From positions 4,482 through 22,911 of the forward strand of contig JBHLNT010000063.1 of NCBI GenBank assembly GCA_048941265.1: 18,430 nt of DNA. The letters run 5' to 3'. This DNA comes from Promethearchaeota archaeon. GTDB taxonomy: Archaea; Asgardarchaeota; Lokiarchaeia; Sigyniarchaeales; SOKP01. Below, piece by piece: positions 3,372 through 17,030 of this stretch. The first letter of the stretch is position 1. Every line of letters begins with the position of its first letter. Both the position numbers and the translations under genes were made by a program. A model generated the notes under the pieces. The model was not told the DNA's origin, did not search any database, and saw only the letters and a program-made list of their open reading frames with translations.

Positions 3372-5396
3372 TTAAGTTTTAAAAAATAAATAATGAGGAT
3401 TTTCATATAAAATATCCTCTTCCTCATCAATTTTATCCAAGCAAGAATGTTGCGTTTCTAACTTATAGACTAAAACAAAATCAGCATTCTTTTCTAATGT
3501 TGCATTTATTAACTCTGCGTAACTCATATCATCAAATTCTATGTACTCCTTTTTACAATCCTTATGATAGATTAAGCGATAAATGACTTTTGGGTCCACA
3601 TTATCTGGAAGAATAATTGTTTTATCTCTAATATCTTTTTCATCGAAATAATCTCCTATATATAACAGAGCGTCCGTTAAATAATCGTCCTTATAATCAC
3701 TTGTATAAATGACATTATATTGAAGATACAGATGAGTAGAGTATATAGATGCTCCAACTATGATTAATAAAATAAAATAGAATCGATCTAGCTTTTTACT
3801 TATTTTAGCGGTTATTTGGTCTACAGTAATTTTATATCCTCTTAAATTTTTTAGTCGTTTCTCTTTAAAATAACTAAAAATTGTAATATAACCGAAAACA
3901 AAAAGTAAAGCCCACACTGGAGAGTATAGTTCAAATAATCTTTTTCCATACTGATTTATAAAACTGGCAATCGATAAAACTGTGTTATTATCAATCACAA
4001 ATAAAAATGAATTCGTTAAAAATAAGAGAAATGTAAGTAAAAAACTAAACTTTATAAAATTTATTAAGTAATCATTACTTTCAGATTTGCCTTGATACTT
4101 ATAAAATAAACCTAATACAAGAAAAATAAAACCCCAATTTAGTGTCTTGTTGATTGGAATATCTAAACCAAAAAATATTAAATTAAACAAGAAATTTGAT
4201 CTCGAAGGTTTTAGGCTAATTAAAAGCAATTTATTCCATTCGGAAATAGCATGAATCTTAATGAATATAACAGCTTTTGCTTGATAACCTCGATACAAAT
4301 ACCGTGTAAAATTTTCGTAAAAATGCTTACCACTCATTAAAAGATTAATAAAATAAGGAATGGTGACAATTGCTGAAATTAAGAAGTAAATACCGTTTTT
4401 AATAATAAAATATTTAATTCTTTCAGTTGATTTATGACTTTTTATACTAAAATTTTCCTTTAGAACATTAATTAATATCAATACATCATATATGATAAGA
4501 TACCCAAATAAGAAAAGAAAATAGAGAAGATGACTTAAAAATATCCCTCCTAGTAAAAGACCTCTGATAAAAAAATATCTCATATTTTCATTTTGAATCA
4601 GTGTATTTAGTAATATAATACCTAATGTTGTTGCAAGGATAGATGGAACAGCAAATGAAAATCGATATAGTAAAGAATTAAAACTTAAAAGCACAACTAA
4701 TGTTATGAAAATTTCAAGATTCTTCTTAAAATAATAAGAAGCGATATTATAAATAGCTAAAATTATTATAGAGAAAAAAAAGATCGCAACATATTTTATG
4801 AAGAAATACTGTAAGTAGAAATCATTTATAATTAATAAAGCCGCAGCAATGAAAATAGCAAAACCAATACCATGAACAGTGTAATTTTCATAATCTAAAT
4901 CACCATATTTATGCAAATATGAAATTACGTCAAACCATATATAAGCATCTTCAGATGGTAGACATAAATTAGTTTCAATCACTCCTTCAACGAGTATTAA
5001 GAGCAAGAACACAAAAAGGAGCATAATTATTTTCAATTGAATATGTTTGTTTGTTAAAAAACCATATAACTTATTATAGGTTTTGATGAGGATATTTTTT
5101 ATCGAAGTTTGTGATTTAAAATATAAATATATTAAACACATTGAATCAAATAATATAAGTGGTAAATAAGCTGTAAAAAAATTAAATATTCTTAAGAAAT
5201 CTATAATGAAATATGAATAAAATATAAAAACCACGGTCCCTAATCCAAAAGATTCTAAAATAATTGACAAATTAATCCTTATTTGTTTAAACTTTTTAAA
5301 AAAGATGTATTGAATGAAATATCCAAAAAGTGTAATTATGAATGCAAAGAAAAAAAAAATAATACTGGATATCAGAAAATAAAGAAAATGAAACAT
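3372..5396 (-). CDS. Large polytopic membrane protein, probable GT-C-fold (lipid-phosphate-sugar dependent) glycosyltransferase-like
   Basis: More than a dozen hydrophobic segments; acidic motif in an early external loop (LPSEDAYIW) followed by Y-x-x-H-G-x-G; 'LFLSHLLY' membrane His motif; soluble acidic C-terminal domain ending 'ILYENPHYLFFK'. Architecture resembles GT-C enzymes; family assignment is inference. Confidence 0.5.
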   Translation of the reverse strand: MFHFLYFLISSIIFFFFAFIITLFGYFIQYIFFKKFKQIRINLSIILESFGLGTVVFIFYSYFIIDFLRIFNFFTAYLPLILFDSMCLIYLYFKSQTSIKNILIKTYNKLYGFLTNKHIQLKIIMLLFVFLLLILVEGVIETNLCLPSEDAYIWFDVISYLHKYGDLDYENYTVHGIGFAIFIAAALLIINDFYLQYFFIKYVAIFFFSIIILAIYNIASYYFKKNLEIFITLVVLLSFNSLLYRFSFAVPSILATTLGIILLNTLIQNENMRYFFIRGLLLGGIFLSHLLYFLFLFGYLIIYDVLILINVLKENFSIKSHKSTERIKYFIIKNGIYFLISAIVTIPYFINLLMSGKHFYENFTRYLYRGYQAKAVIFIKIHAISEWNKLLLISLKPSRSNFLFNLIFFGLDIPINKTLNWGFIFLVLGLFYKYQGKSESNDYLINFIKFSFLLTFLLFLTNSFLFVIDNNTVLSIASFINQYGKRLFELYSPVWALLFVFGYITIFSYFKEKRLKNLRGYKITVDQITAKISKKLDRFYFILLIIVGASIYSTHLYLQYNVIYTSDYKDDYLTDALLYIGDYFDEKDIRDKTIILPDNVDPKVIYRLIYHKDCKKEYIEFDDMSYAELINATLEKNADFVLVYKLETQHSCLDKIDEEEDILYENPHYLFFKT

Positions 5397-5444: not shown

Positions 5445-6281
5445 TTAATATCCTACTAAACCATATTTTTTATAGAAATAATTAAAAAATTTAACACTCA
5501 ACATAGGGGTAATTGAGGAGAATAATATAATAACATAAAAATGTATTAGATATTTAGAATTAAAAATTATAGTTTCAGAGCCCAAAACTAACGATACTCT
5601 CATAATATCCCAATAATAATAGAATGGATTAAAAATTATTAGATATTGAAATTCGTCAGGAAAAAACTCTCTTGGATATTTAATACAGCTAAAGATTAAA
5701 AATAAATTTACAATAAGAAAAAACATGCGAAATCCTCCTTCTACGGACAATCTAAATGATCCGATTATTAAACCAATAGAAGAAATGAATATAGCTGAGA
5801 GAAAATAAACTGTTATAACTAAAATAATCGTTAATAATGAAGCTTCAGCAATAATTAAACAAGAAGCAATTACAAAAGAAAGAGGTATTATGAAAATAAA
5901 CAATTCTGACAACAATTTACTTACTAAAATATTATAAAAATTAATAGGAGAAAGAAATAGCACTGGTAAAGTTTTCCAATATTTCTCTTCTAAAAGACTT
6001 TTAGAATAAGTGACTAAAAGATTGGTTAATGCCATAATGAATATTCCTGTAAGTATAAATAGTATATAATTTTCGGGCGTCCATATTCCAAAGGATTCAT
6101 TTCCTATGGAATCAAATATTTTCCTGAAAATAAGAAACGGTACTATAAATGTTGTAAAAGGGGTAACAATAGCAAATGCAAATTTTGCTTTATATCTCGA
6201 TTTTAATTTAATATCTTTTATAACAAGTGCTCCTAATTGATAAAATTGTATTTTAATTAGTTTTAATATTCTCAAATTCAT
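5445..6281 (-). CDS. ABC-2 type transporter permease (paralog A)
   Basis: About six TM segments; 'KDIKLKSRYK', 'EEKYWKTLPVLFLSPI' (E-x-x-x-x-T-L-x-x-x-x-x-x-P ABC-2 motif), 'YPREFFP...IFNPFYYYWDIMR'. Confidence 0.88.
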   Translation of the reverse strand: MNLRILKLIKIQFYQLGALVIKDIKLKSRYKAKFAFAIVTPFTTFIVPFLIFRKIFDSIGNESFGIWTPENYILFILTGIFIMALTNLLVTYSKSLLEEKYWKTLPVLFLSPINFYNILVSKLLSELFIFIIPLSFVIASCLIIAEASLLTIILVITVYFLSAIFISSIGLIIGSFRLSVEGGFRMFFLIVNLFLIFSCIKYPREFFPDEFQYLIIFNPFYYYWDIMRVSLVLGSETIIFNSKYLIHFYVIILFSSITPMLSVKFFNYFYKKYGLVGY

Positions 6282-6306
6282 TTTAAAAAATATAAATGTT
6301 AATAGA

Positions 6307-6321
6307 TTTTAATAATTTTTT
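6307..6321 (-). promoter_or_regulatory. Candidate archaeal BRE/TATA promoter for permease A
   Basis: Minus strand reads AAAAAATTATTAAAA, 26-40 nt upstream of ATG 6281; mirrors the element on the opposite strand. Confidence 0.35.
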
Positions 6322-6405
6322 ACTTCCTCTACTGATAAGTATTCTTTTCTAATATTGAAAAAAAATCAGATTTAATCTTGAAAAAACAAAAATTAATTGA
6401 ATGTT

Positions 6406-6419
6406 AAAAAATTTATATT
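6406..6419 (+). promoter_or_regulatory. Candidate archaeal BRE/TATA promoter for permease B-ATPase-deacetylase unit
   Basis: AAAAAATTTATATT (purine run then TTTATA) 36-49 nt upstream of ATG 6455. The AT-rich background limits specificity. Confidence 0.4.
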
Positions 6420-6454
6420 TCGTAAAAAAGCGTATAATAAACGAATAAGTTGAG

Positions 6455-7288
6455 ATGCTAGAAAAAAAGAATATAATTGCAAATTTAATTCAAATTTACT
6501 CCTTGACCATAAAAGACATTAAGTTAAAAACTAGATATAAAATTGAATTTATTTCAGAATTTATTGCTCCACTTCTCACATTATTTTTTCCGTTTATAAT
6601 CTTTAATAAATTATTTAACCTCGATAAGAATTTTTTTGGGACCTACTATTCTAAACAGAATTTTTTATTATTCATTTTACTTGGATATTGCGTAACTTGT
6701 CTGATTTTTCTATTATGGAATTATAAAGATCTTTTTTATGATGAAAAAACTTGGAAAACATTAAACGCAATAATTATAGCACCTGTTCGAAGAATTAATA
6801 TCCTTATTGGATATCTATTATCTGGAATAATTGCAAAGCTAGTTCCAATTAGTTTTATCATTGTAATTTGTTATTTGCTTTTTCCTATCCCATTAATTAA
6901 TCTATTTTATGTGTGCATTGTATTATTATGTCTTTCTATTACATTTGCCGGAATTGGATTTATGTTAGGTGTTTTTGAAATAGTTAATGAAGATATTTCA
7001 GCAACGCTAGCTGTTGGAGTGAGTTTTATTTCTTTAGTAAGTTGTTTATATTTTCCGATAACAATTTTTCCCAGCAGTATTCAATTTTTAATTCTAATGA
7101 ATCCCTTGTACTATTATTTTGATTTATTAAGATTATCATGGTGGGCAGGTATCAATTCAAATGAAGCATTGAGGTATATTACAATTTATCACATCATCTT
7201 TGTATCTGTATGCACGGTACTTTCACCATTATTTGGATCTTATTTATTTTTGAGAATTTATAAGAAATATGGAACTTCGGGGTATTAA
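6455..7288 (+). CDS. ABC-2 type transporter permease (paralog B)
   Basis: About six TM segments; 'KDIKLKTRYK', 'DEKTWKTLNAIIIAPV', 'FPITIFP...LMNPLYYYFDLLR'; 3 nt upstream of the ABC ATPase. Confidence 0.9.
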   Translation: MLEKKNIIANLIQIYSLTIKDIKLKTRYKIEFISEFIAPLLTLFFPFIIFNKLFNLDKNFFGTYYSKQNFLLFILLGYCVTCLIFLLWNYKDLFYDEKTWKTLNAIIIAPVRRINILIGYLLSGIIAKLVPISFIIVICYLLFPIPLINLFYVCIVLLCLSITFAGIGFMLGVFEIVNEDISATLAVGVSFISLVSCLYFPITIFPSSIQFLILMNPLYYYFDLLRLSWWAGINSNEALRYITIYHIIFVSVCTVLSPLFGSYLFLRIYKKYGTSGY

Positions 7289-7291
7289 GTA

Positions 7292-8218
7292 ATGGAAAAT
7301 ACAGTTATTGAGACATTTAATTTGATAAAGGAATATAAATTAAAGGCTGGCGGTAAAATAAGAGCATTAAATAATATCAATATTTCAATACAAGAAGGAG
7401 AAATCTTTGGTTTATTAGGACCTAATGGTGCTGGAAAAACAACCCTAGTTTCAATTTTATCTACCTTATTACAGCCCACAAGCGGATATGCTAAAATCTT
7501 TGGATTAGATATTCGGAAAAATATAAACGCTAGAAAAATTAAAAGCCGAATTGGGCTAATGTTAGGAGATGAAATGGTATATCATCGAATGACAGGATTA
7601 GATAATTTGAAATTTTTTGCTAGACTTTACCGAATTGCTGACTATAAAAAAAAAATAAACAGTATTACATCTAAACTTGGAATAAATGATAAATTAAGTG
7701 AATATGTCTCGAATTTTTCACGAGGTCAAAAATTAAGACTTGCTCTTTCGAGGATTTTGTTAATAGAACCAGATATATTATTCTTAGACGAACCTTTATT
7801 AGGATTAGATCCAAAAACTACCAGAGAACTGATTTCTATACTACTAGGATTAAATAAAACGATGCTCTTGACTTCCCATCAGATGCAAATTGTTGAGCAA
7901 TTATGTGGGCGAATAGCATTCTTGAATAACGGAAATGTAATAAAAATTGACTCCCAACAGAACTACATAAAACTTCTTTCAGAATTTATTAGAATTCGAT
8001 TTGATATCTATGATAATGACAAAAAAAGGGAATTAAAAAAAGAGCTTGATAGTCTAAATTATATTCGTTCTATATCTGAAAACGCAAATGGATTAATTGT
8101 TTCAATATTAGATAATAAATTTTATCCTAATCTTTTAACATGTTTAGGGAAATATCCTGTTCGAAAAATTATGGAAATTGAACCAACATTAGAGGATGTT
8201 TTTGTAGCTTTAACTTAA
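7292..8218 (+). CDS. ABC transporter ATP-binding protein (ABC-2/DrrA-NatA-like exporter)
   Basis: Walker A GPNGAGKT, signature variant FSRGQ, Walker B ILFLDEP, D-loop GLDP, H-loop TSH, and C-terminal EPTLEDVF motif typical of DrrA-like ATPases. Confidence 0.95.
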   Translation: MENTVIETFNLIKEYKLKAGGKIRALNNINISIQEGEIFGLLGPNGAGKTTLVSILSTLLQPTSGYAKIFGLDIRKNINARKIKSRIGLMLGDEMVYHRMTGLDNLKFFARLYRIADYKKKINSITSKLGINDKLSEYVSNFSRGQKLRLALSRILLIEPDILFLDEPLLGLDPKTTRELISILLGLNKTMLLTSHQMQIVEQLCGRIAFLNNGNVIKIDSQQNYIKLLSEFIRIRFDIYDNDKKRELKKELDSLNYIRSISENANGLIVSILDNKFYPNLLTCLGKYPVRKIMEIEPTLEDVFVALT

Positions 8219-8266: not shown

Positions 8267-8827
8267 ATGAGGCTTAAAAACCTGTATACAAAAATAATTC
8301 GTAGAATAATAAAAGAAAATGAAAAAACGATTCATGTAGAAGCTTTTATTAGAGAAGACGTATGGAATAATCTCAAGAAATTAATTGGAAATCAATATAC
8401 TTGGTTTATCACAACTCCAGCTAATTATGATTATTGTAGATGTTATTTCAACTTAAAAGTGACCAAGGAAGAATTTACAAATATTTTAAAGAATCGAATA
8501 GGATTTTTAAAGGACCACAATGAAGAAATTCAATTGCACCTTCACTTGTGTAATGTAAAGAATTTTTTAGATAAAGATTTACAAGATGAGAAATTTGAAG
8601 AAGCAATGATGTTCATGCATGATGTGGCAGTTAAACCGATAAAATTTGCTCCAGGATGGAATGCTTATGATGATTATACTTTGAAATTAGTTAAGAAATA
8701 TGGATTTAAGTATTTATATGTTTATACGAAAGAGCCTCTTGACTTAAACAGACCTCACATTAAAAATGGGCTAATCATAAAATATTATAGTAAATTCTGG
8801 CATGACTATGATTTTATCAAAAATTAA
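8267..8827 (+). CDS. Polysaccharide deacetylase-like (CE4/NodB-fold, DUF2334-like) protein
   Basis: 'EEIQLHLH' matches the (G)HEIxxHxH metal motif; 'FAPGWNAYDDYTLKLVKKYGFKY' matches FxPPx...L...GfxY; C-terminal 'WHDYD'. Motif 1 (TFDD) appears as 'TIHVE'. Confidence 0.6.
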   Translation: MRLKNLYTKIIRRIIKENEKTIHVEAFIREDVWNNLKKLIGNQYTWFITTPANYDYCRCYFNLKVTKEEFTNILKNRIGFLKDHNEEIQLHLHLCNVKNFLDKDLQDEKFEEAMMFMHDVAVKPIKFAPGWNAYDDYTLKLVKKYGFKYLYVYTKEPLDLNRPHIKNGLIIKYYSKFWHDYDFIKN

Positions 8828-8846: not shown

Positions 8847-9953
8847 TTATAAAATTTTCATCTCTTTTAATACCGATGCCAACGCAACTAAAAATTTCTC
8901 TATATCTTCCTTGAATATGGCACCCATAACTGATAATCTGAATGTATCCAATTCTGTTATTTTACCTGGATAAATAGTAAATCCTTGTTCATATAATTTA
9001 TCATGAAGGGTTTCAAAATTAAAATTGGGATGATCTAAATAATATATTGTAGTTAATATGTTAGATTCATGCACATCGTCCTGCATTAAAAATTTGAAAC
9101 CCAATTTGGTTAAACCAGTCTTTAATACTTTATAATTTTCCTTATAGCGATTAAACCGATTATTTGGTCCTTCTTCAAAAAATTCATCAATCGCTTTTTT
9201 AAAAGCATACATTATCTGAACGGGAGGAGTGAATCTGGTTTGATTTTTTTTTTCAAGATATTCGAATTGACTATAAAGATCAAGATAATAATTTCTTGGC
9301 TTGTAATTTTTTAATTTTTTTAACTCCTGTTTTTTACATATAATAAAAGTGATTCCCGCCATGCCCTGAATACATTTATTTGATGTAGACATCATATAAT
9401 CAATATTAAACTCTTTTATATTAATAGGTGTTCCCGCAAAACTCGAAATTGTGTCCACTATGAAAATTTTCCCATATTTTTTAGTAATTTCACCTATTTC
9501 CTTAATTGGATTTAATATTCCAACAGTTGTCTCATGATGCGTGACTGCGACGCATGCAATATCTGTATGTTTTTTTAATAATTCCTCAACTTGTTCTAAT
9601 TCTATTTTTTTTCCGAACTCAAATTTAAGCTCAATAACTTCAATATTATAGGTTCTAGCAATTTCAGCAAATCTAATTCCATAAGCACCATTGATAATGA
9701 TAAGAACTTTTTTATTCGGGGGTACTGCTGAACTAATTACGCTGTCCATTGCAGCTGTTCCGGACCCTGTAAATAAAATTGAGGTAAAGTTTTCATCTCC
9801 TTTAACAATTCTAACGAGATCCCGTCTTATTTCTTGCATTAGATCTCCAAACTCTTTTTCTCTGGGGCATATATCTGGAACTATTAGAGAATTTTTCACA
9901 CTGTCTGTCGTTGTTGCCGGACCTGGATTTAATAATATGTTTCTTTTAACCAT
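8847..9953 (-). CDS. phnW: 2-aminoethylphosphonate aminotransferase (class V PLP; biosynthetic AepZ role)
   Basis: LLNPGP, GSGT, NGAYG, HHETTVG, DTISSF, PLP-lysine motif STSNKCIQG, RFTPP, IYPGK are characteristic of PhnW/AepZ; last gene of the pepM operon. Confidence 0.93.
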   Translation of the reverse strand: MVKRNILLNPGPATTTDSVKNSLIVPDICPREKEFGDLMQEIRRDLVRIVKGDENFTSILFTGSGTAAMDSVISSAVPPNKKVLIIINGAYGIRFAEIARTYNIEVIELKFEFGKKIELEQVEELLKKHTDIACVAVTHHETTVGILNPIKEIGEITKKYGKIFIVDTISSFAGTPINIKEFNIDYMMSTSNKCIQGMAGITFIICKKQELKKLKNYKPRNYYLDLYSQFEYLEKKNQTRFTPPVQIMYAFKKAIDEFFEEGPNNRFNRYKENYKVLKTGLTKLGFKFLMQDDVHESNILTTIYYLDHPNFNFETLHDKLYEQGFTIYPGKITELDTFRLSVMGAIFKEDIEKFLVALASVLKEMKIL

Positions 9954-10692
9954 GATTATCTTCTTTTTTTTTTAATTTAGGATAAATAACTTTTTTCGCT
10001 CTATTTAAATCATTGATAGTATCAATTTCAATCCAATTTAAATCATGAATTAATCTACATTTTATAGGATAAGTTTTTGATAATTTATATATAACTTCTT
10101 CGTAATGAAAATTTTTTTTATTGTTGTCATAATCCTCCCTGGCTTTTTTATATAGCAGATTAAGAAAATCTTTAGATAATTTTGAAATCCCCACTAATTC
10201 TCCAATTGCTAAATCTTTATTTTCAATATTTTTACCTAAATTTGTGAGGTTGTTATTTTTATCAACACATATATATACTTCATCACCAGAACCACTTGTT
10301 GGAGCAACAAGTATTTCATTCGGGTCATTTGAATTCATTAAAAAATCTAATGCTCTCTTTTCGTATAATAAATCTGATTCTAATAATAGTATGTTATCAT
10401 TTATTATGCCTTTAGTCTGTGATAAAGAATACATACTGCCCGTATTCATATATTCCCTATTTGTAACATAACTAATATTAATTTGCTTGAATTTTTTTCC
10501 AAGCCTCCTTTTGAAGTATTCTTCCATATATCCCACAACGATTACTATTTCCTCTAATCCTAGTTTATTAAGATTATTCAGAGACCTGATTATTAAAGGA
10601 ACATTTTCAATTTCAAGAAATGCTTTTGGTTTTTTATCGGACAATGGTTTGATACGAATCCCCAATCCCGCCGCTAATATAACCGCTTTCAT
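9946..10692 (-). CDS. LicC/PntC-family phosphocholine/phosphonate cytidylyltransferase (predicted AEP -> CMP-AEP)
   Basis: ILAAGLGIR...PK nucleotidyltransferase motif, TGSMYSL, LLESDLLY, SGSGDEVY, GELVGISKLS, HYEE, WIEIDT; overlaps ppd (4 nt) and phnW (8 nt). Confidence 0.88.
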   Translation of the reverse strand: MKAVILAAGLGIRIKPLSDKKPKAFLEIENVPLIIRSLNNLNKLGLEEIVIVVGYMEEYFKRRLGKKFKQINISYVTNREYMNTGSMYSLSQTKGIINDNILLLESDLLYEKRALDFLMNSNDPNEILVAPTSGSGDEVYICVDKNNNLTNLGKNIENKDLAIGELVGISKLSKDFLNLLYKKAREDYDNNKKNFHYEEVIYKLSKTYPIKCRLIHDLNWIEIDTINDLNRAKKVIYPKLKKKEDNHG

Positions 10693-11825
10693 TTTAATTC
10701 ATTTAGATAATCCATAAATTTTTCTTTATATTTTATGGGAGATTCATTAGGTCTTGCTAAATCGGACCTTGATCCTAATTTAGTTTTAATAACTAAAATA
10801 ATTGGACCCTCTTTATTTTTAATTATTGGAAGAATTTCAACCATTTCATTTTTTGTTTTAATAACTTTGCCATATTTATAATTTGAAGCGAGTGCAATTT
10901 GAACTAAATCTGCTGTCGCAGAATTGGTGGGTTGTCCACCTGTAGATTCATGAGAACGATTATCAAAAATTATATGAATTAGATTTTTAGGAGCATATTT
11001 TCCGATTGTTGTAAATACACCCATTTGCATAATACTTGCTCCATCACCATCTAAAATAAGGACCCTATTCTTTTTTTGGAGGGAAATGCTTAAACCAATG
11101 GAACTCGCGCATCCCATACTCCCAATATTAAAAAAACTATTAAATTTTTGTATTTTTTTGGCCAATAAGTATTCAAATAGTTCTCTAGAAGTATATCCGG
11201 TTGTTGAAATAATAATTACATTTGTATCATCTAAGCTATCTAATATAATTTTAATATACTCTTCTCTCGTTAAATCATATTCATTTAATTCTTCTTTTTG
11301 ATACTCATAAGTTTGAAAGAAGTTGGGTTTGATAATAAAAGCAAATGGGCCTTTATTTTTTTCAAAATGTTGAACGGCCTTTTCAATACTTTTAGTTATA
11401 AATTCAGAATTTGGTTCAAGAATGATATAAGGAATGTTAAGAGTATCTAGTAAGGATAAGGTTATTTTTCCCATTTTTTTATGCTGAGGCGCATCGGCTA
11501 AACCCGGTTCTCCACGCCAGCCTATCATCAAAAGAAGTGGTATTGAATAAATTTCGACATCGCATAATGATACTAAGGGATTTACGGCCTTACCTAATCC
11601 AGAATTTTGCATATATACAACTCCCACTTTGTTTGTTGCCAAATAATATCCGGCGCCTAATGCTACGGCCTCACATTCATTGCAAGGAATTATATTCTGT
11701 AACAATTTTCCATTTTTGTCTGACAAAAAATTCATCCAATCTTTGAATGTAGAATCGGGGATACCCGTAAAAAAAGAGATATCTTTTGTTTTCAAAATGT
11801 TAAAAAAATCCTGACAAGAAATCAT
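10689..11825 (-). CDS. aepY: Phosphonopyruvate decarboxylase (TPP-dependent, fused alpha/beta)
   Basis: FFTGIPDS, YMQNSGLG, GWRGEPG..D.PQH, STTGYTSRELF, GSMG, TPP motif DGDGA...DN, HESTGGQPT, L.RP; directly downstream of PEP mutase. Confidence 0.93.
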   Translation of the reverse strand: MISCQDFFNILKTKDISFFTGIPDSTFKDWMNFLSDKNGKLLQNIIPCNECEAVALGAGYYLATNKVGVVYMQNSGLGKAVNPLVSLCDVEIYSIPLLLMIGWRGEPGLADAPQHKKMGKITLSLLDTLNIPYIILEPNSEFITKSIEKAVQHFEKNKGPFAFIIKPNFFQTYEYQKEELNEYDLTREEYIKIILDSLDDTNVIIISTTGYTSRELFEYLLAKKIQKFNSFFNIGSMGCASSIGLSISLQKKNRVLILDGDGASIMQMGVFTTIGKYAPKNLIHIIFDNRSHESTGGQPTNSATADLVQIALASNYKYGKVIKTKNEMVEILPIIKNKEGPIILVIKTKLGSRSDLARPNESPIKYKEKFMDYLNELK

Positions 11826-11827
11826 AT

Positions 11828-13525
11828 TTAAATCATCAATTCTGCTAACTTGACATCATTTTGATCATTTATTTCGATCCATCCTTTATGGACTTCAGCA
11901 GTGTATACACGAAATCCACGATTTATTATTTCTTGGATTAAATCCATAAAATCTGCCTGCTTAAACTCAATAGCTTCATGAAATGGTCCGTTCCAGTTTT
12001 TTGAGCAATTATGGTAAACTTTTTTTAGTACTTCAGCCCCGAATTTAGAGAAATAGGCGATCCCTATGTATTCATAATCAGCCATCTCGATGTTAATGTT
12101 TTTACCGATTCTTATTACTTCATTCTCTTCTCCATAGAGGCTATAAATCATTTCTGTTGGTTTGTTTTTGGTCAAAACTAAATCTAAATTTTTATCTATT
12201 CCGTGTTTATGATATTTATAAGACCGGTCTACAACTAAAACTATATCGTGATGGGTATTAAGCACGTTACTTATTACAACTTCTGTAAATAAAATATCGG
12301 AATTGATATAGAGAAAACCCTCGTCAAAATCATCCTCAGCGCAAAATAAGGAATGAAGTAAATAATAATCTTTATAATTATCATTATCTATATATTTAAT
12401 TCCTTTTAAATTAATATCTTCTTTTTTATATCCTCTAATCAGCGTTATTTTATTTATATTGAATTTATTTAACACGTCGATTTGTCTTTGTAAAATTGGC
12501 TTATTTTTTATCTTAACCATAGCTTTTGGCATATTAAAATTTTCTGCTTCTCCAGCAGCAGGTATTATTACTTGGAGACCCTCAGTTTGATAAAATTTAT
12601 CCAAATCCTTGATAACAGATAACCCAACTTTATCAAAAATTTCTTTTACTGGAGTACATATTGATTCAACTTCAAAGCCCCTTCCATATTTTAGAATTTT
12701 TTTAGCAGCTTCTTGCATTGCCTTATGGGCAGCTCTTAATAAATGATTAGCATAAATTACTATATCAAAATCGTATTTGCTAAGTTCTTCCTCAGTTATC
12801 ATATTATAAGTAGTAGGTACACAGATGAGAGGTTTTCTAAATCCTAATTCAGAACATAATTCATTATAGGCTTTTGCGAATTCAATAATCTCGTTTGGAT
12901 CATCATTTTTTGAGTGGATCATTATTGCATCTGCCCCTGCTTCCACATATTTTTTAGCCCTAAAAATTGCATCCTTCAACCCCGCTCCCGAAATTAAACT
13001 TTCAATTCTGGCTGCAATAAAAAATTCATCTGAGAATTGAATTTGCTTCCCTCTTTTAATTTTAAGGGCAAATTTATTAGGATCTTCCTGAGTTTGGGAA
13101 CATTCAGGATCTAAACTGTTTCTTTTGGGAAAAACTTTATCCTCAATTATAACCATTGAAACTCCTAAATATTCTAATCTTTTAACTAAATATTCAAAAT
13201 TAGCTAAATCGCCTCCGGTATCTCCATCAAATATAACTGGTTTAGAAGTTGAATCTAAAATAAATCTTAAAGACTCAAAACGGGAATCAATACTTATAAT
13301 ATCTGCATCCGGGTATCCTTTTGAAGCACTATCAGTAAAACTACTCTCCCAAATTCCATCAAATTCTATTAGGTCCCCGTTATTTACTGTTATTTTCGTC
13401 TCTTCTACAATTATAGAACTAAGTCCATCATGGGCTTCTAAAAAGCGTAATGGTCGTTTTATTTCCAATAATTCTTTTAATTTTTTCCTTCTTTTTCCAG
13501 GTGAGATTTGGTTTAAAATAGTCAA
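11828..13525 (-). CDS. pepM: Phosphoenolpyruvate mutase fused to C-terminal nucleotidyltransferase domain
   Basis: Diagnostic PepM motif EDK-x5-NS (EDKVFPKRNS at 13144-13115), plus EAHDGLS, DGDTGG, ARIESLI, GADAIMIHS, VPTTY, IYANHLLRAA. The last ~250 aa (12580-11828) are NTP-transferase-like (IIPAAG...PK...GY...SDILF...GWIEIN). TTG start. Also called aepX. Confidence 0.95.
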   Translation of the reverse strand: MTILNQISPGKRRKKLKELLEIKRPLRFLEAHDGLSSIIVEETKITVNNGDLIEFDGIWESSFTDSASKGYPDADIISIDSRFESLRFILDSTSKPVIFDGDTGGDLANFEYLVKRLEYLGVSMVIIEDKVFPKRNSLDPECSQTQEDPNKFALKIKRGKQIQFSDEFFIAARIESLISGAGLKDAIFRAKKYVEAGADAIMIHSKNDDPNEIIEFAKAYNELCSELGFRKPLICVPTTYNMITEEELSKYDFDIVIYANHLLRAAHKAMQEAAKKILKYGRGFEVESICTPVKEIFDKVGLSVIKDLDKFYQTEGLQVIIPAAGEAENFNMPKAMVKIKNKPILQRQIDVLNKFNINKITLIRGYKKEDINLKGIKYIDNDNYKDYYLLHSLFCAEDDFDEGFLYINSDILFTEVVISNVLNTHHDIVLVVDRSYKYHKHGIDKNLDLVLTKNKPTEMIYSLYGEENEVIRIGKNINIEMADYEYIGIAYFSKFGAEVLKKVYHNCSKNWNGPFHEAIEFKQADFMDLIQEIINRGFRVYTAEVHKGWIEINDQNDVKLAELMI

Positions 13526-13569
13526 TCTATTTTTTAGATTTTAAGTTAAAAATTTCACTTATTTATATT

Positions 13570-13583
13570 GTATATATAGTTTT
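13570..13583 (-). promoter_or_regulatory. Candidate BRE/TATA promoter of the pepM operon
   Basis: Minus strand reads AAAACTATATATAC, 45-58 nt upstream of the pepM TTG, within the divergent 13526-13797 spacer. Confidence 0.35.
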
Positions 13584-13797
13584 AAAAATCATTAATTAAT
13601 AATTTTAACTCATTTGCTATTGATTTTCTCTTAAATAGTCGATTTTTTTTTTAATTCTATTAAAATTAAATTAAGATTCTATGCATAATTTCTGCAAATA
13701 TTTTTTAGATTAAGAGAACTTAGAAAAACTCAAAATTTATTTACTTAAAGATTTTTTAATCAAATAATTCTATTAGTACTAATTTAATGCCGGTCTT

Positions 13798-15843
13798 ATG
13801 AGATTAAAGACAAAATTAGGAAAAATTCGATTTGCAAAAATTCCTTTTATTAAGAAGTCTTATAAATTCGCTATTAAAATTTATGCTAAAAATAGAAAAA
13901 ATATAATGATCAATTCTCTATTTTCTTCGGTATTAAGATTCTCACTTAGATTTAAATTTATGATAAGCTCTTACTATTTTTTGAAAAAAAATCTAATTAT
14001 AAAGAATATCAACGAGTTTTGGATTATTCATATAGGATTTATAAGGAAAAAAAATTACTTTCCTTTTATAGAAATGGATTCTTATATCTCAAATAATCCA
14101 TCCATTTGCTCCAATCTTTTAAATTTACCTTTTAATTCAGAGAGTTGTCAAATGATCTATATTAAACATTTTTTTAGATATTTCAAAAATAAAAATTTTA
14201 ATAAAATAATTAAATCTTGGAAAAAATATCTTATTCCAGGGGGAATCTTAAAAATTCAAGTATATTTAGGTAAAAATGAGAAGAAAGTCGAAAAATTGAA
14301 AAATACCATATTGAAGCATAATTTCTTCTTAAAAACAATTGATGAATATGATCTAAAGATCAATGGAACAATATTAATTACCGCAATTAAGCAAAGAAAA
14401 AGTAATAGTACGATAAGTTCTATTTCTGGTGAAAAGTTAAGGGATATGTGTCTAATCTTAAATCAGAACAGAAAATACTTTTCAAATATCGAAAAGCTTT
14501 GTATAATCGGATTTGATTCTGTTAAAATTAAAAATTTTGTTCAAAATCTAAAACTAAATATAAATCAAATTGATTGTTTTGAGGATATTGAAATTTTTTC
14601 TAAAACAACTGAAAATTATTATGATGCTGCTATTGTGGCAAATTTTTTCGAATATAATAATTATTCTAAAAATACTAAAATTTTCAAGGAGTTACGAAAA
14701 TTATTAAAACCGGGTGGAAAGATGTTGATATTAATCCCGGAAAAAAAAAATTATTACGCTCACCAAGTAGCCCAAGTTTTTGATAAAGGGATTCTTTTGA
14801 AGATATTGGATGATAATAATATAGCAATTAAATGGATAAATTTAAGTTCATCCTTTAAATTTATACAAGTTTTAGTTGAGAATAAAAATAATTTTCCTTT
14901 AGAACACATTGGTATAAAAGTACTATTACTGGGAGTTTATTCTCTCAGATACACTTTTTTAAGCAATGCACGATGGGATAGCCAAGTAAGAGCATTTAAA
15001 AAACTCGGTTATGATATAAGAATATTAGAGATTGAAGATAATTCGTTTTCTTATTTATATAAGTATATTAAATTATTTAGACCCGATATTTTGTGGATTG
15101 GTAGTAAACTTGCCTATGATTTTTTAAAAAAGTATGCTGATTTTTTTAGAGGGTCAAAAATAAAGGTAGTTTATTGGCTTTGGGATATTATAACTCCTGT
15201 TGAATACGATTTTAGGGGAATTATTGATTATATGTTTATTACTAGTAAAGGAGAAATCCCATTATATAAAAAAACGTATAATTTAAATAAAGTTTATTAT
15301 GTACCCGTCGCGATTATGCCTGAAATTATACATAGAAATAAATTTATAAAAAAAATTTATGATGTGGGATTTGCTGGTCAACTGGGATATACACATCCGT
15401 TTTATAAAGAAAGAACGAGATATTTTGATATAATTCGCAAGCATTATACTGTACACGTTTTTAAAAATATCTATAACAATTTATCTGAAAATTACTGCCA
15501 ATGTAAAATTGTATATGGAGGTACGCCGTACTTTAAAGATTTAGAATTATATGCTTCAAATCGACCGTATATTGCAATGGCTAGCGGATGCGTTTTTATA
15601 ACTAATTATTTTAAAGGATTAGAACGTTTAGCTGAAAATGAAAAGCATCTTTTATGGTTTAACAATGATGATGAATTGCTATATTTATTAAATAAATACA
15701 TTAATAACGAAGATCTCTGTAATCAGATAAAAAGAAATGCTGTAAAATTAATCAAAGAAAATCATAATTATGTTATCAGGATACAAAATATGTTAGATAT
15801 CATTGACGGTAAAACAGAAGATTTTTATGGTTTCATTAAGTAA
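13798..15843 (+). CDS. Fusion protein: two degenerate class I SAM methyltransferase-like domains plus C-terminal GT-B glycosyltransferase (YkvP/CgeB-like)
   Basis: Domain 1: LPFNSESCQMIYIKHFF...WKKYLIPGGILKI; domain 2: ENYYDAAIVANFFEY...FKELRKLLKPGGKMLILIP (Methyltransf_11-like C-terminal motifs). GT part: RAFKKLGYDI, FRPDILWI, YDVGFAG...ER, YASNRPYIAMASGCVFIT, ENHNYVIRI. Confidence 0.78.
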   Translation: MRLKTKLGKIRFAKIPFIKKSYKFAIKIYAKNRKNIMINSLFSSVLRFSLRFKFMISSYYFLKKNLIIKNINEFWIIHIGFIRKKNYFPFIEMDSYISNNPSICSNLLNLPFNSESCQMIYIKHFFRYFKNKNFNKIIKSWKKYLIPGGILKIQVYLGKNEKKVEKLKNTILKHNFFLKTIDEYDLKINGTILITAIKQRKSNSTISSISGEKLRDMCLILNQNRKYFSNIEKLCIIGFDSVKIKNFVQNLKLNINQIDCFEDIEIFSKTTENYYDAAIVANFFEYNNYSKNTKIFKELRKLLKPGGKMLILIPEKKNYYAHQVAQVFDKGILLKILDDNNIAIKWINLSSSFKFIQVLVENKNNFPLEHIGIKVLLLGVYSLRYTFLSNARWDSQVRAFKKLGYDIRILEIEDNSFSYLYKYIKLFRPDILWIGSKLAYDFLKKYADFFRGSKIKVVYWLWDIITPVEYDFRGIIDYMFITSKGEIPLYKKTYNLNKVYYVPVAIMPEIIHRNKFIKKIYDVGFAGQLGYTHPFYKERTRYFDIIRKHYTVHVFKNIYNNLSENYCQCKIVYGGTPYFKDLELYASNRPYIAMASGCVFITNYFKGLERLAENEKHLLWFNNDDELLYLLNKYINNEDLCNQIKRNAVKLIKENHNYVIRIQNMLDIIDGKTEDFYGFIK

Positions 15844-15881: not shown

Positions 15882-17030
15882 TCAATTTTTGAGATAATGG
15901 AAAAAATCGCTTATGCTTATAGGTTTTTTCAAATATTTTTCATAAACTTCATAATTTTTATAAACACTCCTATAAAAATCGCATTTTTTGCAAATGGGAT
16001 TAAAATGACCTTTTTGTTGATTGGCTATTAATTTTAAAAAGTTTTTATTATTAATTGAATAAATCTCATCGAAGGTTTGTGTTTTTATATCTCCAATTCT
16101 TAAAGTAGCATTTATATCTCTACAGGCACAGGCATTAATGGTACCGTCTGCCATGACCTGATTTTTGTAAAATATTAAAGAGCATGCTCCATTTTTATAG
16201 AATTTTGTGGGATCGTTTATAATCATGTCTAATCCTTTAACATCTTCAGAAGTGATTAAACCTCCCCATGTGTTAAATGATTTTAGAATTTGTATATTAC
16301 TATTAGTGATTTTTATTATATTTCTAAGTATTTTACATAAATCACTATCGCATTTCTGTAAACCTATAAAAGAACGATCAGTTCTTAATCCAAAACTTAA
16401 CTTAAATTTGATTTTATTACATTTACTTAACAGATAATCTAAATTTGATAATAATTTTTGATATGTTTCACGGTTTCCTCTGGTAATAAGAATAAAGGAA
16501 TTGAGATCGTGACCGTATAAGCTGATAAAAAGTTCTTTAATTTTTTTACTTTGAATTAAATCATCAATATCCTGTTTACTAACTAAAGTAAAATTCGTGA
16601 AAAAGCTATAATTTTTAACTTTAGGATGAGCTTCTAAAAATTTAGTTTTATCTATAAAATTTTTATCGACGAAAACTTCTCCTACTATTGGAGTAAGACC
16701 GAATGTATCATAACCAAAATTAGTTGCTCGGTTAATAATATCAAAAAACAATTCATTAGACATTGTTAATTTTTTATTATTCAATGATTTACTATAACCA
16801 CAAAATTTGCATCTAAGATTGCAAATATTTGAAACTTCTACATAAAGATGTTCTCTCGGATTAGGTATATACTCATTTCTAATTAATCGATTAATTTTCA
16901 TAGTAAGCATGTCGGCATAATATTTCATATCAACTTTATTTCTGGTTAATCTTCGGAATAATGCTGATATTCTAAAAATATTTCTATTCAATTTTTCGGC
17001 TAATAAAGTTGTAATCTTTTTTATTTTCAT
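15882..17030 (-). CDS. Radical SAM protein with C-terminal SPASM/twitch domain
   Basis: YVEVSNICNLRCKFC (CxxxCxxC), IVGEVF in place of GGEP, FTN, ISLYG; C-terminal C-x(~17)-CAC...IGDI...CKKC auxiliary-cluster cysteines. Confidence 0.92.
   Translation of the reverse strand: MKIKKITTLLAEKLNRNIFRISALFRRLTRNKVDMKYYADMLTMKINRLIRNEYIPNPREHLYVEVSNICNLRCKFCGYSKSLNNKKLTMSNELFFDIINRATNFGYDTFGLTPIVGEVFVDKNFIDKTKFLEAHPKVKNYSFFTNFTLVSKQDIDDLIQSKKIKELFISLYGHDLNSFILITRGNRETYQKLLSNLDYLLSKCNKIKFKLSFGLRTDRSFIGLQKCDSDLCKILRNIIKITNSNIQILKSFNTWGGLITSEDVKGLDMIINDPTKFYKNGACSLIFYKNQVMADGTINACACRDINATLRIGDIKTQTFDEIYSINNKNFLKLIANQQKGHFNPICKKCDFYRSVYKNYEVYEKYLKKPISISDFFHYLKN

What the first reader, a model, noticed from the sequence alone, without database searches (positions are those of the whole stretch)
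8847..13525. Complete, translationally coupled AEP biosynthesis and activation operon (pepM-NTase, ppd, pntC, aepZ)
Seen: four co-oriented genes with a 2-nt gap (pepM/ppd), a 4-nt ATGA overlap (ppd/pntC) and an 8-nt overlap (pntC/phnW); catalytic motifs look intact. Known: this set gives PEP -> phosphonopyruvate -> phosphonoacetaldehyde -> AEP -> CMP-AEP. The characterised archaeal phosphonate route (Nitrosopumilus maritimus) instead goes through hydroxyethylphosphonate and MpnS to methylphosphonate; neither a phosphonoacetaldehyde reductase nor MpnS is in this window. AEP is the phosphonate of eukaryotes such as ciliates and trypanosomes, so an Asgard copy would bear on the origin of eukaryotic AEP pathways.
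Basis: partly seen in the sequence, partly recalled or inferred. Interest (0 to 1): 0.75.

Follow-up and report, generated by a model that had tools for sequence, protein, structure and literature searches.

The report
Aminoethylphosphonate operon in Asgard archaeon
An Asgard archaeon carries an intact four-gene set for making the carbon-phosphorus compound 2-aminoethylphosphonate and activating it for attachment to a cell-surface polymer, but the set is a patchy, exchangeable accessory trait and gives no sign of a link to the eukaryotic pathway.

Summary
Four minus-strand genes at 8847-13525 have a 2-nt gap and 4- and 8-nt overlaps. They encode a PEP mutase-nucleotidyltransferase fusion, phosphonopyruvate decarboxylase, a PntC-type cytidylyltransferase and an AEP transaminase. 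Three score above curated cut-offs, and the motifs I checked are intact.

The PntC and transaminase genes together match the characterised Treponema PntC-AEPT fusion (PDB 6PD1), as a split form. The predicted route PEP to CMP-AEP is well supported. The genome is Asgard, and a syntenic copy lies on a 700-kb contig titled Promethearchaeota.

The eukaryote-origin angle gets no support:
- A true AEP transaminase occurs in 4 of 400 genomes of the phylum, 3 of them in this genus.
- 42 of 400 have a PEP mutase. All 17 loci from other genera that I examined pair it, where the contig reaches, with an iron alcohol dehydrogenase, which predicts hydroxyethylphosphonate.
- The transaminase sits in a mixed archaeal/bacterial clade among bacterial clades.
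- No eukaryotic sequence could be placed in a tree.

The interesting part is a conserved mutase/decarboxylase core that carries either of two head-group cassettes, each with its own nucleotidyltransferase (Glu versus His at an amine-binding position). It lies among TagF-like, glycosyltransferase and ABC-2 exporter genes.

The scan saw AEP modules before in Omnitrophota and DPANN genomes, not in Asgard. This is a new member of a known kind, of moderate interest.

The parts
11828..13525 (-). pepM-NTase fusion (565 aa, TTG start). PEP mutase domain is about residues 1-309 (12599-13525). The LicC-like MobA-type nucleotidyltransferase domain is about residues 310-565 (11831-12598).
   Evidence: TIGR02320 335.8 bits, above cut-off 319.55, and PF13714 plus PF12804. 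EDKVFPKRNS motif. The NTase domain's best solved relative is LicC 1jyk, E 6.1e-10, with no match to 6pd1 at E up to 0.01. The start codon is supported by orthologues.
10689..11825 (-). ppd, phosphonopyruvate decarboxylase (378 aa)
   Evidence: TIGR03297 415.7 bits, above cut-off 312.5. GDG-X26-N TPP motif. 54-62% identical to the Ppd of same-family relatives.
9946..10692 (-). pntC-type AEP cytidylyltransferase (248 aa)
   Evidence: Best solved relative is 6pd1_A residues 4-242, E 1.6e-41. E105 and E198 align with Glu104 and Glu196 of Tde-PntC, which bind the AEP amine (Rice et al. 2019 section 8).
8847..9953 (-). aepZ/phnW-type AEP transaminase (368 aa)
   Evidence: TIGR03301 441.9 bits, above cut-off 360.8. 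Best solved relative is 6pd1_A residues 247-608, E 1.3e-99. Lys193 aligns with the catalytic-site Lys.
13526..13797 (.). 272-nt AT-rich divergent intergenic region, the presumed promoter region of the operon. A TATATATA run lies about 45-50 nt upstream of the TTG.
   Evidence: Sequence read. The promoter is inferred, not tested.
17085..18302 (-). TagF/TarF-like CDP-alcohol phosphotransferase (405 aa), the candidate enzyme that moves the phosphonyl group from CMP-AEP to the polymer
   Evidence: PF04464 248.2 bits. TarF model 165.6 bits, below cut-off 550. Homologues flank the operon on both sides in same-genus L034 and abut the phosphonate genes in L036, L037, L043 and L044. The role is inferred.
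15882..17030 (-). radical SAM/SPASM protein (382 aa), no B12 domain found
   Evidence: PF04055 plus PF13186. 64% identical orthologue next to the operon in L034. Role unknown.
13798..15843 (+). methyltransferase-glycosyltransferase-like fusion (681 aa), divergent from the operon
   Evidence: PF13524, PF08241 and PF13649.
5445..8218 (.). ABC-2 type exporter: permease 5445-6281 (-), permease 6455-7288 (+), ATPase 7292-8218 (+)
   Evidence: PF01061 twice, PF00005. All three are conserved near the operon in L034 at 42-56% identity.
8267..8827 (+). DUF2334/polysaccharide-deacetylase-like protein (186 aa), convergent on aepZ
   Evidence: ESM Atlas feature scores 0.92 and structure TM 0.64-0.69 to Polysacc_deac_1/DUF2334 clusters (a lead only). 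57% identical orthologue in L034.
1275..2543 (+). GT4 glycosyltransferase (422 aa)
   Evidence: PF00534 and PF13692.
3372..5396 (-). polytopic membrane protein of no known family (674 aa, about 13 hydrophobic segments)
   Evidence: No Pfam or NCBIfam family. Hydropathy scan.
2579..3223 (-). small Bud32/RIO-like kinase-fold protein (214 aa)
   Evidence: TIGR03724 39.6 bits, below cut-off 125. 50% identical orthologues beside the operon in L034 and L035.

Best explanation
The four genes form an operon that makes 2-aminoethylphosphonate and activates it as CMP-AEP. PepM rearranges PEP to phosphonopyruvate. Ppd decarboxylates that irreversibly to phosphonoacetaldehyde. AepZ transaminates it to AEP. 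The stand-alone PntC-type enzyme joins AEP to CMP from CTP. CMP-AEP then most likely donates the phosphonyl group to a glycan or teichoic-acid-like polymer. That polymer would be built by the neighbouring glycosyltransferases and TagF-like phosphotransferase and exported by the neighbouring ABC-2 transporter. In evolutionary terms this is an accessory surface-decoration module. A PepM-NTase/Ppd core is shared with relatives in the same family, and it carries one of two exchangeable head-group cassettes. This genus has transaminase plus a Glu-type NTase (AEP). The loci examined from other Asgard genera have an iron alcohol dehydrogenase plus a His-type NTase (predicted HEP). What the data show directly: gene identities, motifs, synteny and distribution. 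What is inferred: every enzymatic step, the acceptor polymer, the TagF-like enzyme as the transferase, and the role of the PepM-fused NTase, which stays unexplained.
For: - Gene identity: three curated equivalog models score above cut-off, and the motifs are intact.
- Match to a characterised enzyme: the NTase and AepZ match the two halves of one solved chain, 6pd1_A (residues 4-242 at E 1.6e-41, residues 247-608 at E 1.3e-99). Rice et al. 2019 (PMC6697681; passages and section 8 read) identify 6PD1 as Tde1415 and show AEP cytidylyltransferase and transaminase activity for it.
- Specificity residues: both Glu that contact the AEP amine are kept. Glu at the first position is found in 8 of 9 NTases encoded next to an AepZ and in 8 of 8 NTase-AepZ fusion proteins. 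Of 13 NTases encoded beside the alcohol dehydrogenase or in its expected place, 12 have His there, and all 4 PepM-fused NTase domains have Asn, Tyr or Phe.
- Not catabolic: no PhnX above cut-off in the genome (best 52.4 bits against 220).
- Same gene set in a relative: PepM-NTase, Ppd, NTase and AepZ lie in the same order on a 700-kb contig titled Promethearchaeota. TagF-like genes, the radical SAM gene, the ABC-2 genes, the deacetylase-like gene and the kinase-like gene are also there, rearranged (L034/L055).
- Mosaic origin: PepM-NTase and Ppd are 54-62% identical to same-family loci that carry the alcohol dehydrogenase. The NTase is only 27-30% identical to theirs. In the PepM tree the window's clade (99*) is sister (97*) to 20 such same-family rows.
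- Known architecture: Rice et al. note bacterial clusters with both a ppm-fused and a separate NTase. Spirochaetota loci L085 and L104 have PepM-NTase, Ppd and a 624-aa PntC-AEPT.
Against: - No chemistry or expression data exist. No RNA run is listed for this stretch.
- No LicD-like phosphotransferase, the transferase proposed for bacterial Pnt clusters, is in the window.
- The TagF-like enzyme is assigned by adjacency alone. It lies within the fetched flanks in only 7 of 20 relatives' loci.
- A second NTase fused to PepM has no assigned substrate, so the pathway drawing may miss a step.
- The HEP reading of relatives rests on Fe-ADH hits below the curated cut-off (190-266 bits against 423.7).
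- The direction of the cassette exchange is open. By matching contig lengths, deeper branches of the PepM-NTase clade also seem to be AEP-type (P0199/P0039, P0211/P0042, P0212/P0036).
Confidence: 0.78

Rival explanations
1. One reading: the operon is an old, vertically inherited Asgard trait, so it informs the origin of the eukaryotic AEP pathway.
For: The host is Asgard. PepM-NTase has an Asgard-labelled neighbourhood: every one of the best 120 hits that carries an organism name is labelled Asgard, except one partial Aenigmarchaeota protein. Eukaryotes make AEP (established knowledge; PMC3640398 passages).
Against: - A true AepZ is found in 4 of 400 genomes of the phylum. One of these (G282) branches apart with Proteobacteria.
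- The operon is in 3 of 10 genomes of its own genus and is absent from two that are 98-99% complete.
- The AepZ clade lies within a group mixing Thermoplasmatota, Nanoarchaeota, Methanosarcinales, Deltaproteobacteria and Planctomycetota labels, among bacterial clades.
- Asgard PepMs fall into at least two separate lineages.
- The one solved PepM that I recall to be eukaryotic (1m1b, mussel) scores 162.8 bits. That is below all 150 best 50%-identity representatives, which score at least 167.3 bits.
Confidence: 0.06
2. CMP-AEP feeds a phosphonolipid head group, as in ciliates, not a glycan or teichoic-acid-like polymer.
For: CMP-AEP is the donor for phosphonolipids in eukaryotes (established knowledge, recalled). 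The window holds a 674-aa polytopic membrane protein of unknown family.
Against: No CDP-alcohol phosphatidyltransferase family was found on any window ORF. The conserved neighbours are glycosyltransferases, TagF-like enzymes, an ABC-2 exporter and a deacetylase-like protein.
Confidence: 0.12
3. The PepM-fused NTase is the real AEP cytidylyltransferase, and the stand-alone 248-aa NTase activates something else, such as a sugar 1-phosphate or phosphocholine.
For: Rice et al. treat ppm-fused PF12804 domains as putative PntCs. The 248-aa protein also hits sugar-1-phosphate NTase models at 46-93 bits, far below their cut-offs.
Against: The 248-aa protein matches the characterised Tde-PntC domain end to end at E 1.6e-41 and keeps both amine-binding Glu. 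The fused domain has Asn and Asp at those positions and no 6pd1 match at E up to 0.01. The stand-alone NTase changes together with the head-group enzyme, while the fused one does not.
Confidence: 0.12
4. The contig is a mis-binned bacterial fragment, or the transaminase serves AEP catabolism.
For: The contig is short (22,911 nt) and its GC (27.0%) is a little below the genome's (30.5%). PhnW is reversible, and phnWX catabolism is reported in Asgardarchaeota (PMC12106651 passage).
Against: The same gene set lies on a 700-kb contig titled Promethearchaeota. 30 of 134 other genomes of the family have PepM. Relatives' loci sit beside ubiquitin-E2/RWD-like genes. There is no PhnX above cut-off. The transaminase overlaps its upstream gene in an operon that begins with PepM.
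Confidence: 0.02

Closest known systems
Bacterial phosphonyl-tailoring (Pnt) clusters of oral anaerobes (Treponema denticola Tde1415, Atopobium rimae Ari1348; Rice et al. 2019, PMC6697681)
   Same: PepM fused to a PF12804 NTase, plus Ppd, plus a separate PntC and an AEP transaminase, set among cell-surface glycan genes. The window's NTase and AepZ match the two domains of Tde1415 (6PD1) in the same order. Both amine-binding Glu are kept.
   Different: The host is an Asgard archaeon. PntC and AEPT are two overlapping genes, not one fused chain. No LicD-like transferase is present, and a TagF-like enzyme is the neighbour instead. PepM-NTase is only 33-34% identical to the Spirochaetota form and lies in another PepM clade.
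Bacteroides fragilis aepXYZ-type AEP core (PepM, Ppd, AEP transaminase; named from recall and from Li and Horsman 2022, PMC8942020, passages read)
   Same: The same three-enzyme route to AEP. It is the commonest predicted phosphonate branch point, at 56% of neighbourhoods.
   Different: Here there are two NTases, and the setting is archaeal. Li and Horsman had only 12 archaeal neighbourhoods, and the word Lokiarchaeota has 0 occurrences in their main text.
Fom1/PhpC-type HEP route and the Nitrosopumilus maritimus methylphosphonate route
   Same: Shared PepM and Ppd steps. The loci examined from other Asgard genera (L036-L053) have the Fe-ADH step. Some have a Fom1-like PF01467-type cytidylyltransferase-PepM fusion.
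   Different: The window has no Fe-ADH and a transaminase in its place. MpnS was not sought with a model of its own.
Teichoic-acid/ABC-transporter-dependent polymer pathways (TagF/TarF polymerases, TagGH-type ABC-2 exporters)
   Same: A TagF-family enzyme uses a CMP-linked donor, and an ABC-2 permease/ATPase set lies close by.
   Different: The TarF model scores 165.6 bits against a cut-off of 550. The donor here would be a CMP-phosphonate, and the organism is an archaeon. No such enzyme activity is shown.

Membership tests
PEP mutase (TIGR02320 / Ppm) | Score above the curated equivalog cut-off | tested here: met
   335.8 bits against 319.55; 338 bits in the genome search
PEP mutase (TIGR02320 / Ppm) | EDKXXXXXNS motif that separates Ppm from other isocitrate-lyase family members (Rice et al. 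2019) | tested here: met
   EDKVFPKRNS at residue 128
PEP mutase (TIGR02320 / Ppm) | Coupled to an enzyme that pulls the unfavourable equilibrium (Ppd next door) | tested here: met
   ppd starts 2 nt after the pepM stop
Phosphonopyruvate decarboxylase (TIGR03297) | Score above the curated cut-off, and a TPP-binding motif | tested here: met
   415.7 bits against 312.5; GDG-X26-N at residue 260
AEP transaminase (TIGR03301 PhnW-AepZ) | Score above the curated cut-off | tested here: met
   441.9 bits against 360.8
AEP transaminase (TIGR03301 PhnW-AepZ) | PLP-binding Lys | tested here: met
   Lys193 in SNKCIQG aligns with the Lys of 1m32, 9kk8 and 6pd1. That position is Met in 9kka.
PntC (phosphonate-specific cytidylyltransferase) | Full-length similarity to a characterised PntC | tested here: met
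   6pd1_A residues 4-242 against query residues 2-244, E 1.6e-41
PntC (phosphonate-specific cytidylyltransferase) | Glu at both positions that bind the AEP amine (Glu104 and Glu196 of Tde-PntC; Asp in LicC) | tested here: met
   E105 and E198
PntC (phosphonate-specific cytidylyltransferase) | Kinetic preference for AEP over phosphocholine, with CTP | not testable with these tools
   Needs purified enzyme
Pnt surface-tailoring cluster (Rice et al. 2019) | LicD-like phosphotransferase or glycosyltransferases nearby | tested here: inconclusive
   Glycosyltransferases are present, but no LicD family was found on the window ORFs scanned. A TagF-like PF04464 enzyme is there instead.
HEP/methylphosphonate route (Fe-ADH, MpnS) | Phosphonoacetaldehyde reductase next to PepM/Ppd | tested here: not met
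   None in the window. The genome's best TIGR03405 hits score 130-162 bits on other contigs. Relatives' PepM-linked Fe-ADHs score 190-266 bits.

The most novel reading that the evidence does not exclude
Asgard archaea coat themselves with a so far undescribed class of phosphonate-bearing, teichoic-acid-like surface polymers. A conserved PepM-NTase/Ppd core accepts interchangeable head-group cassettes. One is transaminase plus a Glu-type NTase, giving AEP. The other is Fe-ADH plus a His-type NTase, giving HEP. TagF-family enzymes would act as phosphonyl transferases or polymerases that use CMP-phosphonates, and an ABC-2 transporter would export the product. Cassette exchange would then be a way to vary surface chemistry between close relatives, for instance under pressure from viruses or partner organisms.
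Probability: 0.3. Interest if true: 0.65.

Novelty: new member of a known kind. Interest (0 to 1): 0.4.

Why it matters
Phosphonate surface decoration is well described in bacteria. Three searches of the held paper library found no paper that links Asgard archaea with PEP mutase or AEP biosynthesis.

About one Asgard genome in ten of those sampled (42 of 400) has a PEP mutase. Two of these are single-contig genomes (G138, G143), though they carry the HEP-type locus, not this operon. The envelope chemistry of the closest prokaryotic relatives of eukaryotes may therefore include C-P compounds.

That can be tested by 31P-NMR wherever a carrier is in culture. The paired exchange of tailoring enzyme and matching cytidylyltransferase also gives a natural specificity pair (Glu versus His) for enzymology. 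It does not, on present evidence, bear on where eukaryotes got their AEP pathway.

Tried and rejected
- Expression: the look-up of sequencing runs listed 6 DNA-type metagenome runs from 3 studies and no RNA holder. I did not lay reads.
- Naming the sister lineages of the Asgard PepM-NTase clade: the listing of cluster members on 10 representatives returned no organism names. Whether the wider 50-row clade is purely archaeal stays open.
- Eukaryotic sequences: none could be brought into a tree. The solved-structure search gives no protein ids, and the homologue lists show only the best 120 or 150. I compared bit scores only.
- Mobile-element signs: no tRNA gene, and only short AT-rich chance repeats.
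- Catabolic reading: rejected, since no PhnX scores above cut-off.
- Shine-Dalgarno-like motifs at the overlaps: looked at by eye and not convincing. Translational coupling is inferred from the overlaps only.
- A 'careful' bootstrap tree and AU tests were not run. The AepZ tree is a quick search with SH-aLRT support, and the PepM tree is FastTree.
- Redundant rows left out of the AepZ tree before building: 23 loci, mostly Arenibacter and other Flavobacteriaceae, plus two fragments (L084, L099).
- Rows left out of the PepM tree: 16 of 198 sequences that matched fewer than 250 positions of the domain.


Full report
**Observation.** The window is G000:C313:4482-22911. It is the larger part of a 22,911-nt contig in a 5.0-Mb assembly of 361 contigs, 91% complete. 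One search confirms the junctions letter by letter: a 2-nt gap, a 4-nt ATGA overlap and an 8-nt ATGGTTAA overlap.

The pepM start is a TTG. Both same-genus orthologues use TTG at the same codon, and genera g2 and g12 use ATG there. The operon ends 19 nt from a convergent gene. It begins after a 272-nt AT-rich divergent spacer.

**What the genes are.**
- NCBIfam equivalog models score above cut-off for PEP mutase (335.8 against 319.55), phosphonopyruvate decarboxylase (415.7 against 312.5) and PhnW-AepZ (441.9 against 360.8).
- PepM carries a C-terminal PF12804 nucleotidyltransferase domain.
- The PepM-specific EDKXXXXXNS motif, the TPP motif of Ppd and the PLP lysine of AepZ are present.
- The 248-aa protein has no equivalog model. 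Its best solved relative is chain 6pd1_A residues 4-242 (E 1.6e-41).
- AepZ best matches residues 247-608 of the same chain (E 1.3e-99).
- Rice et al. 2019 (PMC6697681; passages and section 8 read) state that 6PD1 is Tde1415. This is a PntC-AEPT fusion with measured AEP cytidylyltransferase and transaminase activity. In it, Glu104 and Glu196 contact the AEP amine where LicC has Asp.
- In the window's protein these positions are E105 and E198.

The gene pair 9946-10692 and 8847-9953 is therefore a split form of that bifunctional enzyme. One metagenome relative (P0024, 75% identical to the window's AepZ, 619 aa) has the two fused. None of it has been shown by experiment.

**Direction of the pathway, and the host.** The genome has no phosphonatase above cut-off (best 52.4 bits against 220). 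The transaminase lies in an operon headed by PepM, so the route is biosynthetic.

The Asgard assignment holds:
- The closest named locus (L055, 76% AepZ identity) is titled 'Promethearchaeota archaeon' and lies on a 700-kb contig. It has PepM-NTase, Ppd, NTase and AepZ in the same order.
- Named relatives are labelled Promethearchaeota, Lokiarchaeia, Lokiarchaeota, Hermodarchaeota or Odinarchaeota.
- A relative's locus sits beside ubiquitin-E2/RWD-like and Cnd1-like genes.
- Earlier notes of this scan on the same genome also call it Asgard.

**Distribution.**
- PepM above cut-off occurs in 42 of 400 genomes of the phylum, and in 30 of 134 other genomes of the family.
- In the window's genus it occurs in 3 of 10 genomes, counting G000. 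It is absent from two genomes that are 98-99% complete.
- A transaminase above the AepZ cut-off occurs in only 4 of 400: G000, G170, G173 and G282. G282's copy branches with Proteobacteria, away from the window's.

I fetched 20 relatives' loci.
- Only the two same-genus ones (L034, L035) carry AepZ.
- Of the other 18, 17 (L036-L041, L043-L053) have PepM next to Ppd.
- L042 (G234) shows PepM alone within the fetched flanks.
- Where the contig allows, the 17 also have a distantly related NTase, 23-30% identical to the window's.
- All six of the intervening 376-392-aa ORFs that I scanned, from six loci, are iron-containing alcohol dehydrogenases. Five of the six have the phosphonate-linked model TIGR03405 as best hit, at 192-266 bits against a cut-off of 423.7. 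The sixth has it third.

So the loci examined from other Asgard genera predict reduction to 2-hydroxyethylphosphonate. The AEP form is the local exception.

**Cassettes.** Pairwise comparison sorts the NTases into three main classes, plus a further stand-alone kind related to the fused class.
- PepM-fused domains are 48-64% identical among Asgard, whatever the head group.
- NTases next to the Fe-ADH are 42-62% identical to each other across four families.
- The window's PntC-type is 27-32% identical to all the others.

At the position of Tde-PntC Glu104:
- NTases beside an AepZ have Glu in 8 of 9 cases. The exception is L054.
- NTases beside the Fe-ADH or in its expected place have His in 12 of 13 cases. 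The exception is L050.
- The 4 fused domains have Asn, Tyr or Phe.
- All 8 of 8 NTase-AepZ fusion proteins have Glu at both positions.

PepM-NTase and Ppd of the window are 54-62% identical to the same-family loci with the alcohol dehydrogenase. The window is therefore a mosaic: a family-type core plus a transaminase/PntC cassette.

The direction of the exchange is not settled. In the PepM tree the window's clade (99*) is sister (97*) to 20 such same-family rows. But matching contig lengths suggest that deeper branches (P0199, P0211, P0212) sit on contigs that also encode AepZ relatives (P0039, P0042, P0036). By the same matching, 10 of the 25 PepM-NTase proteins at 66-72% identity share a contig length with one of the 27 AepZ proteins at 73-80%. 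That is inference from contig lengths, not from sequence.

**Trees.**

*AepZ* (69 rows, IQ-TREE quick search, rooted on four Asgard class-V aminotransferases with long branches).
- The window lies in a 100* clade of 11 rows. Every label in it is Asgard.
- Within the next starred clade (97*, 18 rows) lie, unresolved, a 98* group of four (Lokiarchaeia and Thermoplasmatota labels, plus two unnamed) and an unnamed pair. A Deltaproteobacteria-labelled protein is sister to all of these.
- A wider 35-row group (support 88, not starred) adds Nanoarchaeota, Methanosarcinales, Planctomycetota and Brocadiae labels.
- Clades of Bacteroidota, Campylobacterota, Spirochaetota and Bacillota lie outside it.

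*PepM* (182 rows, FastTree).
- Asgard sequences fall into two separate lineages.
- The C-terminal PF12804 fusion type sits in a 96* clade of 50 rows.
- The N-terminal PF01467-type fusion (f3, f13, f16 and G234 of the window's own family, with G048 of f15, whose ORF runs off its contig end) sits inside a 99* clade of 92 rows, near Campylobacterota and Planctomycetota.
- Spirochaetota and Lentisphaerota C-fused PepMs form a third group.
- The unnamed representatives could not be given organism names.

**Eukaryote angle.** I could not place eukaryotic sequences in a tree. What can be said:
- The AEP-defining genes are rare and nested in Asgard (see above).
- The phylum has at least two PepM lineages.
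- The solved PepM 1m1b, which I recall to be from the mussel, scores 162.8 bits. A bacterial-type entry, 5unc, scores 156.
- All 150 best 50%-identity representatives score 167.3 bits or more.

Nothing points to a special Asgard-eukaryote link.

**Surroundings and likely destination.**
- The window also encodes a TagF/TarF-like phosphotransferase, a radical SAM/SPASM protein and a methyltransferase-glycosyltransferase-like fusion.
- It encodes a GT4 glycosyltransferase and two ABC-2 permeases with their ATPase.
- It encodes a 674-aa polytopic membrane protein, a DUF2334/deacetylase-like protein and a small kinase-fold protein.
- A further GT4 lies upstream on the contig.
- G170 keeps the same gene set around its operon in a different order, with TagF-like genes on both sides.
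- TagF-like genes lie within the fetched flanks in 7 of 20 relatives' loci. They directly abut the phosphonate genes in genera g1, g2 and g12.
- Genus g11 loci have instead a sulfatase-family protein, a PgtP-like transporter and an epimerase.

TagF enzymes use CMP-linked donors. A TagF-like enzyme that moves the phosphonyl group from CMP-AEP to a polymer, followed by ABC-2 export, is therefore the most economical model. It is inference only.

**What is known and in print.**
- The architecture is described for bacteria: Ppm fused to PF12804 in 33% of Ppm proteins, and clusters with both a fused and a separate NTase.
- Li and Horsman 2022 (PMC8942020, passages read) counted Ppm in 1.6% of archaeal genomes, with 12 archaeal neighbourhoods. 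The word Lokiarchaeota has 0 occurrences in their main text.
- Searches found no paper that joins Asgard or Lokiarchaeota with PepM or AEP synthesis. The 'pepM' hits of one search have unrelated titles.
- PMC12106651 mentions only phnWX catabolism in Asgardarchaeota.
- Public annotation already names these proteins in Promethearchaeota records.
- This scan noted AEP modules before in an Omnitrophota bacterium and in DPANN archaea, none in Asgard.

**Verdict.** The operon is real, intact and correctly read. It is a new (Asgard) member of the known PntC-type AEP tailoring pathway. The eukaryote-origin argument is unsupported. The exchangeable head-group cassettes and the unexplained PepM-fused NTase are the points worth following.

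Noticed in passing
L036-L053 (relatives' loci), e.g. L038:9289-14061, L046:10082-14442: Asgard PepM loci outside this genus pair PepM and Ppd with an iron alcohol dehydrogenase. TIGR03405 is the best hit for 5 of the 6 scanned, all below cut-off. They also carry a His-type NTase. This predicts hydroxyethylphosphonate and a CMP-HEP-like activated form. Two of these genomes are single-contig (G138, G143).
   Followed up: partly
L046:13141-14442 and the other 429-442-aa PepM ORFs (L004-L009, L011-L014): A second Asgard PepM lineage has an N-terminal PF01467-type (Fom1/TagD-like) cytidylyltransferase domain, seen on the one protein scanned (L046). It branches apart from the C-terminal fusion type. 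One genome of the window's own family (G234) has this form.
   Followed up: partly
window 11831-12598 (-): The NTase domain fused to PepM is conserved at 48-64% identity whichever head-group cassette follows. It lacks both amine-binding Glu (Asn and Asp instead). Its substrate is unexplained.
   Followed up: partly
L038:14243-15556 and L038:16499-18004: In genus g11 the phosphonate genes sit next to a PgtP/GlpT-like organophosphate transporter and a sulfatase-family (alkaline-phosphatase superfamily) protein. The latter could be an alternative transferase.
   Followed up: no
window 2579-3223 (-): A small Bud32/RIO-like kinase-fold protein (39.6 bits, below cut-off) is conserved beside the operon in both same-genus genomes. 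It might be a small-molecule kinase of the pathway.
   Followed up: no
window 8267-8827 (+): A protein with no Pfam family resembles DUF2334/polysaccharide deacetylases by ESM Atlas features (0.92) and structure (TM 0.64-0.69). Several of the nearest clusters are recorded as viral.
   Followed up: partly
window 3372-5396 (-): A 674-aa protein with about 13 hydrophobic segments and no family hit. It is a candidate polymerase, ligase or flippase of the surface polymer.
   Followed up: no
L111 (G282:C209): A second, unrelated AepZ/PhnW in the phylum (475 bits) groups with Proteobacteria. It lies on a 3.7-kb contig in a genome where no PepM was found (78% complete). It may be catabolic, or a stray contig.
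   Followed up: no
L037:12031-13686 and L037:2259-4970: A ubiquitin-conjugating-enzyme/RWD-like protein and a Cnd1-like protein lie close to the phosphonate locus of a same-family genome.
   Followed up: no
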